DNA of 64,000 nucleotides, taken from NCBI GenBank assembly GCA_041694815.1, contig JBGFSC010000033.1, forward strand, positions 1 through 64,000, read 5' to 3'. The position numbers are program-made. The stretch is from Elusimicrobiota bacterium (lineage in GTDB: Bacteria; Elusimicrobiota; Elusimicrobia; UBA1565; JACRDR01). Positions 39,001-45,000 of this stretch are shown here, piece after piece. Position 1 is the first letter of the stretch, and every line of letters starts with the position of its first letter.

Positions 39001-42000
39001 CAAATGCGGCAAGAAGGTGGACATGTACTTCGAGGAGTGGTGGCCCGAGGAAGACGAGTGCCTGAGGACCTATTCTCCCGCCAAACGCTGTCCTAGCTGC
39101 AATAGCGGCTTGGAAGTCGAAGAACGCGAAATCGAAGAGGGGGACTAATGTCAGAAATCCGGGAAGCGCTGGGGCTCGTGGAAACCAAGGGGTTCGTCGG
39201 CATGATCGAGGCCTCCGACGCCATGGCCAAGGCGGCCAAGGTGCGGCTAGTCGGCTACGAGAAGGTGGGCAACGGGCTGGTCACGACTCTTTGCCGGGGC
39301 GAGGTGGGCGCCGTGCGCGCGGCCGTCGAGGCGGCTGCCGCAGCCGCCCAGAAGGTCGGCGAACTGGTGTCCGTCCACGTGATTCCCAGGCCCCACGACG
39401 ACCTGGAACGGTACCTGGATGCCATCGCCGTGAAGCTCAAGGCGTAAGCCCTCCGGGCGCGACGCCGGACGATGTACACCGCCGACGACCTTATCGACGC
39501 TATTTTCGAATGCCTGCCCCGCGACGCCCGGGCGCCGCGGCCACCCGCCCCCTCCCCCCGCGGTCGGCCTTTCCTGACGGAGGCGGCCATCAAAAAGGCG
39601 TTGACTCCCGGAGCCCGACACCTTACAATACCAAGGGACTCCATCGTCAGCCCTTTGGCCCTCGATTGGCTGACGCTCAAGGGCGTAGAAATCATCCGCG
39701 AGTAGCATTATTAAGGAGAGCCGAATGGACGTAAGCAGCTTGCTCAAATTGATGGTCCAAAGGGAGATTTCCGACATCCATTTCAAGGCGGATTCTTCCC
39801 CCGCCTTAAGGATCCATGGCCAGATGATCCCGGCCTCGAACATCCAGAAGCTTAGCGCCGAGGACGTCAAGGGAATCGCCTATCAATTGATGACCCCCCA
39901 GCAGGTCAAGCATTTCGAGGGAGAAGACGAGATGGATTTTGCCTACAGCCTTCCCGGGGTGGCGCGTTTTCGCATCAACGTCTACCGGCAGAGGGGCTCG
40001 GTGGGCCTGACCATGCGGGTAGTTCCCTTGAAGGTGGGTGATTTCCAGTCGCTCAATCTTCCCGCCCAAGCCTTGACCCGGTTGGCCCAGGAAAGCCGCG
40101 GCCTGATCCTGTTTACGGGCATCACCGGGGCGGGAAAAACAACCTCGATGAACAGTTTCCTCAACTATATCAACGCCAACTACCAGTACCGGATCATCAC
40201 CGTCGAAGACCCCATCGAGTTCTATCATCAGGACCTCAAATCCTCCGTCGTGCAGCGGGAGGTGGGCCACGACACCCGCTCCTTCGCCCACGCCCTGCGG
40301 CACGTGCTCCGGCAGGACCCGGACCTCGTCGTCATCGGGGAGATGCGGGACTTCGAGACGATCCAGGCGGCGATACTGGCGGCCGAGACAGGTCATCTGG
40401 TGCTCTCGACCCTGCATACGATGGACGCGGTGCAGACCATCGACCGAATCATCGACGCCCATCCCGCGCACCAGCACCCCCAGGTGCGGCAGCAATTGGC
40501 CAACACGCTCAAGGGGGTCGTCGGGCAGCGCCTGGTGCCGACCCAGGACGGCAAGGGCCGCGTCCCCGCCACCGAGATCATGGTGGCCAACAGCCTGTCC
40601 CGGCGGCATATCCTGGAGGGCAAGAACGCCGAGCTCTATAAGCTGATGGAGGGCGGCGCCTACTACGGCATGCACACCTTCGACCAGGACCTTATCCGCC
40701 TCGTCCAAGAGCAGAAGATCGACCAGAAGACAGCGTTGGAGAACGCCAGCAATCCCGAGGATATCGCGCTCAAGATGCGCGGCGTTTCGGCGGGGGTCTA
40801 AGTGGGAGAACCGGAGGGAGAGAAGGAGGTCGAGTCGATCCTGACGGATCTGGAGTCGATCTTGTCCGGGACTCCTCCCGCCACCCCGCCGGCCAAGGAG
40901 GCGCCCGCCAAGGCGATTGCCGCCAAGCCGGCCGATGTGCCGGAAATCAAGCTTTCCGCGAGCACGACCGCACCGGCCGAAGCAACTCCTCCGATTCCGG
41001 CATCGGCACCGCCTCCTCCGACCATCTCGCTGCCCGCGGCCGCTCCGCCGCCGGTTCAAGCCAAGCCAGCGGTCCAGGCTCCTCCCCTGGTCCAAGCGCC
41101 GCCACCGGTCCAAGAGCCGCCTCCCGTGTCCGTTCCGACGCCGGCGACCGCAGCAACACCGCCCGCTGCCGCGCCGCAGGCTTCCGGGGTTCCCGAGAAT
41201 ACTCCTAAGGACCAGATCCGGCGCGTCGGCTTTCTCTACGCCCCGGAGCAGAAAGGGAACGTGGAGGAGTTTCTGAAATTCATCGATTCGGTGGCATTGA
41301 AGGTGTCCAAGAAACCGTTGTACATCGAACGTGTGATGGTGAGCGAGTTTCCCGAGCAAGGAGATCCCAAGTTGGCCTTCGAGCAGGCTAAGGCAGGGAA
41401 GGCCGTAGGCGTGGTCGGGGTGTTGGCCTCGCTGCCCGAAAGCAGGATACGCGAAATCGAGGAGGTATTCTCTGAAAACGGCATGTTTTATCGGACCGTG
41501 CATCCAGACGACATGCTCAAACGCTCGACCGTGGTCGATCTGCTCGTAGACCTGATGTTGAGCAGCCCTGCTTGACGATGCTGGAGATGTGGGAGCTCAT
41601 CCCTTCGCCGACCGCCGCCCAGCCCCATCGGCAAACGTTGTGGCTCAAGGGCCAATTGGCGGACGTCAACGCCGTCATCCGCCGTTTGGGCTCGGTTTGC
41701 GGCCGCCCCCGCAAGGGGTCGCGCGGCAAGTTCAATTTCAGTCTCTACCTGCATCCCGACGGCCCGCAGGCCATCGGGAATATCCAGTCGGCCCTACGGG
41801 ACATCACCTCACCGGGCTCCACCGCCGCGACGCCGCCGGTCAAGCCGGCTCCGGCCGCGCCCGCCGAAGCTCCGGAACTCCCCGCGCCCAAGCCGATCGT
41901 TCAGGAAACGCCGAGCGCGACTCCGGCCGCAGCCGCTCCAGCGCCCGCTCCGCAGCCGCTCTTCGGCGCCGCGCTGGAGCCTAATAGCGACTACAATTTC

Positions 42001-45000
42001 GAGGCCATGGTGGTGGGTTCCTTCAACCGCTTCTCGCACGCGGCTGCCAACTCGGTGGTCTCCAATCCCGGGACGATGTACAACCCCCTGTTCCTCTTCG
42101 GCAATCCCGGCACGGGCAAGACCCACCTACTGAGCGCCATCGCCCAGGCCTTGCAGCAGCCGGTTTGGCTCAGCAGCGGGCCACGGCTGGCGCGGGCCGT
42201 CGCGCGGGCCGCGCCAGCGGGAAGGATCGGAGAGCTAGAGGAGTTGGCCGAACGCTCGCGGGCCCTGCTCATCGACGACATCCATTTACTCTCGGTCAAC
42301 GAGCACAACCAGGACGGACTGGTGAAGCTGCTGCGCCGTTTCTTTTCGGCCTCCAAACAGGTCGTCATGAGCTCCGCCTACCCCCCGCGCGCGTTGACGG
42401 CCATGGAGCAGGCCCTGGATTTCAAAATCGCTTCGGGCTGGGCGGTCGAAATGAAGGCCTTTGGCCCGGAGGTCCAGCGCGAGATCCTCGCCATGGCCCT
42501 GCAGCGCGCCGGGTTTGCCAACGACGAGGTTGCCGTAACGCAGGTCCTGGGCCATATCGGCGAGGCCTTTTTCGATCTCGGCCGGTGGCTGCGGCGCCTC
42601 AAATCCCTCGCCGCGTTGCGCGCCGCCGCGGGCCAGGCCGCCTCGCTGCACGAGCTGCTGCCCGTCCTTTTCGTGCCCGAGCTGCCGGTGCCGGAGCCCC
42701 TTTCCGACGAGGAGGTCCAGGGCCTTCTCGGGCAGATGCCCCCGGCGCCCGCCGGCGCCGCCCAAGGCGCCGTCTTTTTCCCGAAAGGACGTAGCGCCCA
42801 TGCCGAACTTATGCTGCGCCGTTTGGCCGCCGTGTCCAAGCCCAACGGCTGGCCATTCCCGATCCGCCGGGCGGCGCTGGAGGCCTACGACCCGGACCAG
42901 CTCTTCGGCGTGCCTTTCGAAATAGCCGAGGCCTGTGAAAACGCGCGCGCCGGAGCTGCCCTGGTGTTGGGCCCCGCTCCCGGTTCGGGCCTGGCGGGCC
43001 GGGAGACCGAGCTCGCGCACGCGGTGGGGCATATACTCGAAAGCTTGGGCATACGGTTCGGTTGGATCCCATTTAGCCGAGTCAACGAGCTGGCCCCGTA
43101 TTTTCGCGCGGGGCTCGATCTGAGATGACCCTGCCCGTGTGGGTGGCCCTACTGCTCTGCGCCGCCTCGGCGGCCGCCGCGGCGCTCGCGGCTCGCCGCG
43201 TTGGCGCGAACGGGGAAGGCGAGAAGAGGCCGAAGGCTCCCGGGATCGCGCTGGAGTCGACGCTGCGCGAGGTTGCCGCCACCATCGCGGCCCGCCCCAG
43301 CCGGCCTTCCGACAGCCTGGGGGCGATCGTCTCGATCATCGCGAAGGCGGTCAGCGCCGACCTGTGCGCTTTTTTGCTCTTCGAGGAGGCCAGCGGGGAG
43401 TTGGTCACGCAGCCCGGGGCCTACGGCCTGTCCTCGGGACAGGAAGGCTCGCTCTATCGCCTCCCGCTCAACAACGATACCTCTTCCTCGGTGCGGGTGT
43501 TTAAGACCGGGTTGTCGTTCTTGACTGGGGACGCTCAAAGCGACCCAAGGGTCATCAGTCATTACGTCAAATTGTGGAAATGCCATTCCCTGATGGTGGT
43601 TCCCTTGACCCTCGAAGGCAAGCGCGTCGGCGTTCTCCGCGTGGGGAGCTTCCAAAAGGACTTTTTTTCCGCCGAGCATCTCCGTTTCGTCGAGCTGCTC
43701 GCGGAGGAGGCGGTCGTCATTCTAGGAGGGGCCCTGCTGACGCAGAAGCTGCGCGAGACCAACCAGCGGCTCGAGGAGCTTAACCGGCTCAAGGATGAGT
43801 TCGTCTCCACGGTAAGCCACGAGTTCAAGACGCCGTTGACCTCCATCAAGGGATTTGCGACCGTCATGCTCGAGGGGTCGCCGGGCCCGATCAACGCCGA
43901 CCAGAGGAAATTCCTGACCATCATCCAGAACGCCTGCGACCGCCTGACGATGCTGGTCTCGGAGCTCCTCGACATCTCACGCCTGGAGGCGGGCGTGCGC
44001 ATGGAAATGCAGGAAGTGTCCTTGGAGGAGATGCTCCGCGTCTCGCAGGAGAACCTCCAATGGCAGGCCGAGAGCCGAGGCATCCGTCTGTCGCTCGAGC
44101 TCCGGGACTCCCTGCCACCCATCCAAGGGGATCCCCGCTGGCTGCGCCAGGTGGTCGACAACCTGCTTTCGAACGCGATCAAGTTCACGCCCAAGGGCGG
44201 CAGCGTCTGTATGCGGGCGTGCCTCCAGGGCGACGCCGTCGAGGTGACCGTCGAGGACACTGGCGTGGGGATCGCGCCGGAGGACCAGCCGCACATCTTC
44301 CAGAAATTCTATCGCGCCCGCAGCCAGGCCCCTTTGAACGCGCCGGGGACGGGGCTGGGCCTGGCGATCGCCAAGACGGTAGTGGAGAAGCACGGCGGGC
44401 GGCTCTGGTTCGATTCGCAGCCCAACCGCGGCTCGAGATTTTACTTTGTCTTGCCGACCGCCGAGGCGGCGGCGCGGATGCAGCGTGTCTAACGGTGCCT
44501 GGCACCGACAAATAGGAGGGGGGACTCTATGCGAAAAAACTGGAAGGCAATGGGCTGGGCCTTGGCGTGCGCCGCCCTGGCCGCCGGATGCTACGGCCCG
44601 CAGAGCCGCGTCAAGAAGGGCCAGGTGCAGAACACAATCAACCAGGACCCGAACCGCAACCAATACTTAGAGGCGATCGGCATCGGCGCATCCGATCCGG
44701 CGCTCGCCAGCGACACGCAGCGCAAGGCCCTCGCGCGCGACGCCGCCATCGTCAAGGCGCAGTATGAGATGCTCTCCATGGTCAAGGGCGTCATGCTCCA
44801 GGGAGGGGTGACCGTCCAGCGGGCGATGGAGACCGATTCCACGCTCGAGGCGAAGGTCAATGACGTCATCAAAGGCGCCGAGATACTCAAGAGCGAGTTT
44901 ACCGCCGACAACGGCTGCGTCGTGACGATCCGACTCCCGAAGAAGCGGTTGGAGGAGATGATGGGAGTGAAGTTCAAATGAGTCGCCTATGGCTGGCCGC

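What a model noticed while it worked through the whole genome (the two positions that open the first line are those of the whole stretch)
41578..43128. A second DnaA-family ATPase that has swapped its DNA-binding domain for an Argonaute MID-like domain, in a PilT-kinase-C [...]
g01744 (516 aa) has a DnaA domain III core but no domain I or IV; its C-terminal 130 residues fold like the Argonaute/Piwi MID domain. It lies after pilT and before a GAF histidine kinase, comM and dprA, and is kept even in the reduced gut Elusimicrobiaceae.
Evidence so far: 28% identity to the genome's own DnaA over domain III only, Walker A intact, arginine-finger motif replaced. Full model pLDDT 86; best folds DnaA Z 22.6, Hda 16.1. 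C-terminal domain alone (pLDDT 88): the top 15 of 48,161 chains are all Argonaute/Piwi (Piwi Z 11.8, rmsd 3.5, 119 aligned; MIWI MID Z 10.8 over 115 of 127), next unrelated fold Z 9.0. Found in 19 of 19 genomes of family f4 and 2 of 2 of f5, in none of the other 39 phylum genomes searched. DnaA-HisKA neighbours in at least 61 of 100 order genomes; comM follows in 3 of 3 and dprA in 2 of 3 relative loci.
(Added by a program. Inside this text positions count along the whole contig: contig position 1 is position 1 of the stretch shown here. "Call 12" and the like, gene names such as g00115 and contig names such as C1 are that model's own, and its searches are not shown. The text may have been shortened before it was handed on; [...] marks where a part breaks off. 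The agent that wrote the report below was given it as the finding of a first reader that could run no searches.)

Follow-up and report, generated by a model that had tools for sequence, protein, structure and literature searches.

The report
Argonaute-type domain grafted onto DnaA ATPase
Many Elusimicrobiota carry a copy of the replication ATPase DnaA whose DNA-binding end is replaced by a relative of the Argonaute guide-anchoring domain, next to a second gene with the same domain, a pilus motor and a sensor kinase, which suggests an RNA-silencing part reused as a regulatory module.

Summary
The gene (B, 41578-43128) is real: an 80-aa unknown N-domain, a DnaA ATPase core without domains I/IV, and a C-terminal domain folding like Argonaute MID (Z 12.4). 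(1) The upstream gene A (40802-41575) ends in a paralogue of the same domain (hhalign 97.7%; MID Z 13.8). (2) The link is more than fold: a combined A+B profile matches a Thermus Argonaute MID profile at 93% (controls ≤3.5%). But the 5'-phosphate lysines are gone, and no PIWI passed cut-off in 201 genomes. (3) The family is phylum-wide (213 of 301 genomes). Most other lineages keep an intact ATPase; the window's clade lost arginine finger and sensors. The ancestral unit is pilT-A-B-kinase inside a tpi-deoC-deoB salvage gene cluster. comM/dprA follow only in the degenerate clade (0 of 25 intact loci), so the competence reading is weak. Best explanation (0.45): a nucleotide-switched scaffold whose MID-derived heads dock partners or a small ligand to regulate a dedicated PilT motor and an orphan kinase. 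No binding or function was tested. I found no description in the paper searches run.

The parts
39601..39629 (+). sigma-70-like promoter (TTGACT-17-TACAAT) 96 nt upstream of pilT, inside a 77-aa ORF (39472-39705)
   Evidence: 10/12 matches; a 10-11/12 site lies upstream of pilT in 7 of 8 same-order relative loci, 8 of 41 loci in all, 0 of 41 control stretches inside pilT; consensus match only
39725..40801 (+). PilT/PilU-family ATPase paralogue dedicated to this module
   Evidence: TIGR01420 434.6 bits, over cut-off; one of 4 PilT-like genes in the genome; upstream of B in 28 of 32 intact-type loci
40802..41575 (+). gene A, 257 aa: Pro-rich arm plus a MID-like domain (about residues 136-255) paralogous to B's; no Pfam family
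   Evidence: hhalign 97.7%, E 2.4e-12, 117 columns; top 17 chains Argonaute/Piwi, Z 13.8
41578..43128 (+). gene B, 516 aa, the finding's gene: NTD - linker - DnaA domain III - linker - MID-like domain
   Evidence: starts 2 nt after A's stop and overlaps the kinase start by 4 nt
41578..41817 (+). conserved N-terminal domain (about 80 aa) of no known family; also found on gene A in several other families
   Evidence: not DnaA domain I (hhalign 0.6%); only weak ACT/YajQ-like structural neighbours, TM 0.53-0.56
41974..42624 (+). DnaA-type AAA+ core: Walker A and Walker B kept; sensor I, arginine finger, sensor II and the ssDNA-binding lysine replaced
42748..43125 (+). MID-like domain lacking the YKQTNK 5'-phosphate motif (window: A, G, G, R, D at five mapped positions)
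43125..44492 (+). GAF-HisKA-HATPase histidine kinase with an N-terminal hydrophobic segment; no response regulator among the recurrent neighbours
   Evidence: next gene after B in 21 of 36 intact and 18 of 34 degenerate loci
32675..39447 (+). context: tpi, pduL, aldehyde dehydrogenase, rpiB, deoC and shell genes (sugar-phosphate microcompartment), co-oriented upstream
   Evidence: homologues in relative loci named; order
47591..54899 (+). context in this clade only: comM, LysM, TPR, HTH, dprA, topA, xerC

Best explanation
B and A are two paralogous carriers of a free-standing domain homologous to Argonaute MID, in an ancient four-gene module (pilT-A-B-kinase) of Elusimicrobiota. SHOWN: architecture, paralogy, gene order, distribution, motif states. 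INFERRED: ancestral B forms a DnaA-style ATP-dependent oligomer that does not bind DNA (no domain IV, ssDNA lysine lost). Its MID-derived head uses the face that in Argonaute meets the guide and PIWI as a docking site for a partner protein or small ligand, not as a 5'-phosphate clamp. With A, on long flexible arms, it acts as a cytoplasmic scaffold or switch that regulates the adjacent dedicated PilT motor and the orphan GAF kinase, so tuning type IV pilus activity. In the window's clade the ATPase decayed to a nucleotide-binding, probably non-polymerising form, the head's conserved face changed with it, and B survives as a scaffold even where pilT, A and the kinase are lost.
For: Paralogy of A and B heads (the A profile also finds B heads it was not built from, E 2e-8). 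Both fold as MID. Profile match to Thermus Argonaute MID 93.2%, E 3e-7, 113 columns; receiver, lumazine synthase, TOPRIM, DprA and reversed controls ≤3.5%. Intact-type B (classed on ATPase motifs only): last pocket lysine is Asp in 89 of 89; DnaA K243 equivalent is S/A/G in 89 of 89, against K/R in 76 of 77 true DnaA. pilT upstream in 28 of 32, A in 26 of 32, kinase next in 21 of 36 intact loci. Abutting or overlapping genes. pilT-A-B are absent together at G004, where the kinase stays, and pilT-A persist together in G005. Low-complexity linkers of 17-2101 aa. All B form one branch apart from DnaA (98% SH-aLRT, quick tree).
Against: No interaction or activity was measured. The coupling to PilT is loose: B is kept in 92 of 92 f10 and 30 of 30 f16 genomes, where no close match to this PilT paralogue was found (best E 1e-87 to 1e-101, against 1e-111 to 1e-175 for the linked type), and pilT is upstream in only 9 of 34 degenerate loci. 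The module lies in a conserved metabolic gene cluster that persists without it, so adjacency may partly be inertia. Intact heads keep Q (76 of 89) and N (88 of 89) of the guide-binding motif, which could mean a nucleotide-like ligand.
Confidence: 0.45

Rival explanations
1. DNA-foraging sensor: the MID-derived head binds a nucleoside, a deoxyribose-type metabolite or an unphosphorylated (5'-OH) DNA end, the invariant Asp replacing the phosphate-binding Lys, and so couples pilus-driven DNA uptake to nucleoside salvage.
For: Intact-type loci are flanked by deoC/rpiB/tpi upstream (15, 23, 22 of 32) and deoB or a nucleoside phosphorylase downstream (18 of 25). The upstream microcompartment type is proposed to catabolise DNA breakdown products (PMC11585597, passages). 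Q and N of the motif, and an R/K matching TtAgo R446, are conserved. 5'-OH-binding MID variants exist (PMC6299218 section 8).
Against: The salvage cluster stays intact without the module in f19 genomes G179 and G162. A lacks Q and N, as does the window's B. Median net charge of the heads is 0 to -1, against +4 for the Thermus MIDs. Argonaute's pocket is completed by PIWI, which is absent.
Confidence: 0.22
2. Replication regulator: B co-assembles with or inactivates DnaA (Hda-like or as a filament poison), linking a signal read by the head to initiation.
For: Intact-type B is 52-56% identical to this genome's DnaA over domain III and keeps finger and sensors. B is nearly always single-copy and kept in 92 of 92 small f10 genomes, like a core gene; dprA-topA-xerC follow in that clade.
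Against: A clamp-binding-like motif (pattern recalled) occurs in the first 150 aa of only 1 of 75 B proteins. The clade with best retention has lost the finger. Not found in 70 f19 genomes. The oldest neighbours are a pilus motor and a kinase.
Confidence: 0.15
3. The MID likeness is convergence of a small Rossmann-like fold, and the heads are unrelated to Argonaute.
For: 7-15% identity in the structural matches; Foldseek puts lumazine synthase first for B's head; no Pfam ArgoMid or Piwi hit for 38 B or 22 A heads; no Argonaute in PDB sequence searches. Sub-profiles alone match MID only weakly (9-62%), and the MID profile is one Thermus family of 21 sequences.
Against: Two independently folded paralogues both rank Argonautes first by 3 Z units or more; Foldseek ranks MID first for A; the sequence-only profile match is end to end with Q and N in register and exceeds 40 block-shuffled controls (score 33.7 against at most 19.0).
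Confidence: 0.1
4. A split Argonaute-like, guide-dependent defence or DNA-surveillance system.
For: MID homology; ApsB shows that a MID without a typical PIWI can act in plasmid defence (PMC11096173, passages).
Against: ApsB keeps the Y-K-Q-K motif and needs its lysine; these proteins lack it. No PIWI over cut-off in 201 genomes; PADLOC gives only short ATPase-region or coiled-coil matches; no nuclease among recurrent neighbours; fixed chromosomal position across the phylum.
Confidence: 0.03

Closest known systems
Argonaute/PIWI MID domain (e.g. Drosophila Piwi 6kr6, human AGO2 MID 7c6b, TtAgo)
   Same: Same fold over the whole domain (Z 12.4-13.8), profile-level homology, and Q and N of the YKQTNK motif in intact-type B.
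   Different: Stands without PIWI or PAZ, always at the C-terminus; phosphate-binding lysines lost (last one Asp/Glu); fused to an AAA+ core or to a disordered arm.
DnaA replication initiator
   Same: Domain III, 52-56% identical in intact-type B with all ATPase motifs; databases annotate such proteins as DnaA, and P0113 even passes the TIGR00362 cut-off.
   Different: No domain I or IV, ssDNA-binding lysine lost, a true DnaA co-exists; the window's clade also lacks finger and sensors.
Hda (DnaA-inactivating paralogue)
   Same: DnaA-derived AAA+ core without domain IV.
   Different: Far below the Hda cut-off (59.5 against 194.8 bits), no clamp-binding-like motif, extra NTD and MID head, finger lost in this gene.
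ApsB of the ApsAB antiplasmid system (PMC11096173)
   Same: MID-like domain in a protein lacking typical PIWI and PAZ.
   Different: ApsB keeps and needs the Y-K-Q-K motif and pairs with a helicase-nuclease on islands; here the motif is lost and the partners are a PilT and a kinase.
Pilus-motor regulators and polar scaffolds such as RomR, FimX/PilZ, PATAN proteins (recalled; only search listings seen)
   Same: Small alpha/beta domains on long low-complexity linkers acting on type IV pilus ATPases.
   Different: No sequence relation found; none is known to me to use a DnaA core or a MID domain.

Membership tests
DnaA initiator | domain III AAA+ core | tested here: met
   PF00308 E 2e-28
DnaA initiator | domain IV (DnaA-box binding) | tested here: not met
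   no PF08299; head vs domain IV profile 0.2%; head folds as MID
DnaA initiator | domain I | tested here: not met
   no PF11638; NTD vs domain I profile 0.6%
DnaA initiator | arginine finger, sensor I, sensor II | tested here: not met
   replaced in the window's protein and its clade; kept in intact-type relatives
DnaA initiator | ssDNA-binding B-motif lysine (E. coli K243; PMC8235120 passage) | tested here: not met
   K/R in 0 of 89 intact B, 2 of the degenerate B scored, 76 of 77 DnaA
Hda | N-terminal clamp-binding motif (pattern recalled) | tested here: not met
   1 of 75 B proteins match a loose pattern
Hda | stimulates DnaA-ATP hydrolysis | not testable with these tools
   needs biochemistry
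MID domain (homology) | MID fold | tested here: met
   Foldseek on B's head is ambiguous
MID domain (homology) | sequence-profile relationship | tested here: met
   93.2%, E 3e-7 for the combined A+B profile against one Thermus MID family, controls ≤3.5%; single subsets weaker
Argonaute / pAgo | 5'-phosphate motif Y/R/H-K-Q-K (PMC6299218 section 8) | tested here: not met
   last K is D in 89 of 89 intact and D/E in 118 of 123 degenerate B; second position mostly S/A/Q/G/T; positions mapped by profile alignment, not by superposition
Argonaute / pAgo | PIWI domain in cis or trans | tested here: not met
   head is C-terminal in the 150 best relatives listed; PF02171 0 in own genome, 0 of 201 over cut-off; very divergent PIWIs could be missed
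Argonaute / pAgo | guide binding | not testable with these tools
   needs biochemistry
Response-regulator receiver | receiver sequence profile and phospho-acceptor Asp after strand 3 | tested here: not met
   hhalign ≤1.3% against 30 receivers; strand 3 ends in GP, no Asp; receivers reach only Z 8-9.8
Type IV pilus motor regulator | binds the PilT-family ATPase | not tested

The most novel reading that the evidence does not exclude
A PIWI-free branch of the Argonaute MID family, at least as old as the Elusimicrobiota phylum, senses a nucleotide-like ligand or an unphosphorylated DNA end and switches a DnaA-derived ATPase filament that controls a dedicated pilus motor for DNA foraging. MID would then be an independent signalling module, and possibly a window on what MID did outside Argonaute.
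Probability: 0.2. Interest if true: 0.9.

Novelty: categorically new. Interest (0 to 1): 0.72.

Why it matters
MID is described as tightly coupled to PIWI (PMC3702460, passage), and the known exception, ApsB, still anchors guides. Here MID homologues occur alone, in two or three paralogous copies, as near-core genes of a phylum, with the phosphate pocket rewired. That makes the origin and non-silencing uses of MID testable. It also shows the DnaA oligomerisation core reused away from DNA, with a natural pair of active and decayed versions. Many such proteins are mis-annotated as DnaA. A cultured strain has the gene (P0013, Elusimicrobium minutum ACC97718.1).

Tried and rejected
Pairwise BLAST of A and B heads: not significant (E 1.5); profiles were needed. 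Pfam scans of heads: no relevant family. PDB sequence searches: no Argonaute listed; best hits designed Rossmann proteins. ESM features: own cluster first (0.91), Piwi/ArgoMid clusters at 0.79-0.82, a lead only; NTD no usable feature hit. Complex prediction of PilT, A head and B head: tool not available, no verdict. No RNA holder listed. Errors of mine: one of four lumazine synthase control rows was out of frame; window:39468-39707 was scanned in the wrong frame (correct ORF); the first intact/degenerate split used the head motifs themselves and was redone on ATPase motifs; five f5 loci were first misclassed, two still, fixed. The tree is the quick one, with most Endomicrobiaceae DnaA rows left out. 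Competence-core role rejected: ComEC in 147 of 151 genomes regardless of B. Microcompartment positioning rejected: shell genes upstream in only 9 of 32 intact and 11 of 34 degenerate loci. Paper searches showed no description in listings; the library lacks most subscription papers, and no supplements were read.
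Full report
OBSERVATION. The ORF at 41578-43128 (+) encodes 516 aa (gene B). Pfam finds Bac_DnaA at 136-290 and no DnaA_N or DnaA_C; the genome's true DnaA lies on another contig, has all three, and is 29-30% identical over domain III. B has four parts: a conserved N-terminal domain of about 80 aa (NTD) unrelated to DnaA domain I, a Pro/Ala linker, the ATPase core and a 126-aa C-terminal head. The head, folded from 38 homologues (pLDDT 94.7), ranks 16 Argonaute/Piwi chains first among 48,161 (best Z 12.4, rmsd 2.7, 116 aligned; first other fold Z 9.2). 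Foldseek is less clear and puts lumazine synthase first. I did not re-run the full-length model.

A SECOND COPY. The gene just upstream (A, 40802-41575, 257 aa, no Pfam family) ends in the same kind of domain: hhalign 97.7%, E 2.4e-12, 117 columns. Its own model (pLDDT 95.0) ranks 17 Argonaute/Piwi chains first (best Z 13.8, next fold 10.3), and Foldseek ranks MIWI and AGO2 MID first. In several families A also carries the NTD, and four f22 loci hold a third copy. No further copy was found in the window's genome.

HOMOLOGY OR ANALOGY. I built a MID profile from TtAgo and 20 Thermus-family relatives. Sub-profiles match it weakly (9-62%); a combined A+B profile matches at 81.7% and, deepened, at 93.2%, E 3e-7, over 113 columns. 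Controls (30 receivers, lumazine synthase with one faulty row of four, TOPRIM, DprA, reversed MID) gave at most 3.5%; 40 block shuffles scored at most 19.0 against 33.7. Pfam and PDB sequence searches showed no Argonaute. I judge homology likely (about 0.9), resting on one Argonaute family plus two fold searches.

THE POCKET. pAgos anchor the guide 5'-phosphate with Y/R, K, Q, K plus semi-conserved T and N, completed by PIWI (PMC6299218, section 8 read whole). Mapping by profile alignment, with B classed on ATPase motifs only: the 89 intact-type heads keep Q (76) and N (88), but the last K is D in all 89 and the second position is mostly S/A/Q/G; the 123 degenerate-type heads mostly lose Q and N too; the window's B reads A, G, G, R, D. 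No PIWI was found in this genome or over cut-off in 201 phylum genomes. So this is not a guide-anchoring Argonaute part.

THE ATPASE. In most families sampled outside the window's order and f10/f16, B keeps Walker A/B, sensor I, the arginine finger and sensor II and is 52-56% identical to DnaA domain III. In the window's order, f16 and f10 only the Walker motifs remain. The lysine matching E. coli K243, important for ssDNA binding (PMC8235120, one passage), is K/R in 76 of 77 DnaAs and 0 of 89 intact B. Two strongly conserved head motifs occur in 86-87 of 89 intact and 2 of 123 degenerate proteins; this is one evolutionary event, not many. A quick tree puts all B on one side of a branch from DnaA (98%) and the degenerate set in one long-branched clade (100%).

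RANGE. B's head is in 213 of 301 phylum genomes, 42 of them outside the class; f10 92 of 92, f16 30 of 30, f19 0 of 70, f6 0 of 4, f8 0 of 3. A's head is in 95 of 301, f10 0 of 92. f10 is probably the Elusimicrobiaceae and f19 the Endomicrobiaceae (my inference). A profile search of 1.84 billion representatives gave 236 hits; in the 150 listed the head is C-terminal, behind an ATPase core wherever the protein is long enough to show one, bar fragments. Range outside the phylum is poorly tested.

NEIGHBOURS. In 75 loci with B, chosen by me to span families: intact type, pilT upstream 28 of 32, A 26 of 32, kinase next 21 of 36, comM or dprA downstream 0 of 25, deoB or nucleoside phosphorylase downstream 18 of 25; degenerate type, pilT 9 of 34, A 17 of 34, kinase 18 of 34, comM 25 of 32, dprA 26 of 32. 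The old order is tpi-rpiB-deoC-pilT-A-B-kinase-tkt-deoB-phosphorylase. The upstream microcompartment type is proposed to burn DNA breakdown products (PMC11585597, passages; earlier scan note e1-1089558 called this locus SPU1). But the salvage cluster persists without the module in two f19 genomes, G004 keeps only the kinase, and G005 keeps pilT-A elsewhere. The pilT is a dedicated paralogue; close matches were not found in f10, f16 or f19. No response regulator is among recurrent neighbours. ComEC is almost universal and does not track B.

MECHANISM. Best reading (0.45): a nucleotide-switched scaffold. Ancestral B oligomerises like DnaA but off DNA; the MID-derived heads of A and B dock partners or a small ligand and regulate the linked PilT and kinase. 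In the window's clade the switch decayed and B persists as a scaffold, with linkers up to 2101 aa. Rivals: nucleoside or 5'-OH sensor for DNA foraging (0.22), DnaA regulator (0.15), fold convergence (0.1), Argonaute-like defence (0.03).

COMPARISON AND NOVELTY. It fails membership of DnaA, Hda, pAgo and receiver families, while its head passes as a MID homologue. MID is described as tightly coupled to PIWI (PMC3702460, passages); ApsB lacks a typical PIWI but keeps the motif (PMC11096173, passages). PMC2636766 (passages) added nothing. Seven paper searches (listings and abstract starts only) and two look-ups of earlier scan notes showed no description; sources annotate relatives as DnaA or hypothetical. 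The composition matches no system I know, so I rate it categorically new, with function unproven. Interest 0.72.

Noticed in passing
window 39472-39705: 77-aa ORF between the last shell gene and pilT, recurrent in 22 relative loci; a homologue had no NCBIfam match. It contains the promoter-like site for pilT.
   Followed up: partly
window 44529-47542: Four exported-looking proteins (LPP20-like, unnamed 346 aa, GNA1162-like, CsgG-like) follow the kinase in many relatives; two of them directly follow B in f10.
   Followed up: no
L074-L077 (family f22): A third paralogue (NTD plus MID-like head, no ATPase) lies between A and B.
   Followed up: partly
P0146; L061 9898-14772: B proteins of 2568 and 1624 aa, almost all of the extra length an acidic, low-complexity or coiled-coil-like linker between NTD and ATPase.
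   Followed up: no
L054 and L055 (G102); L090 (G133): G102 has two divergent B copies; G133 has a second, unlinked A copy.
   Followed up: no
L191 7874-9436; L064 2520-3989: Intermediate B forms: L191 keeps a finger-like Arg but lacks the sensors; L064 has a shortened ATPase region with an intact-type head.
   Followed up: partly
G000 genome-wide: 82 receiver-domain matches in a 2.8-Mb genome, and up to 9 PilT-like genes per genome in this order.
   Followed up: no
L087 14695-15507: 270-aa membrane-like protein with no NCBIfam match, recurrent in 7 loci near the module.
   Followed up: no
window 38876-39148: 90-aa double zinc-ribbon protein inside the microcompartment cluster.
   Followed up: no
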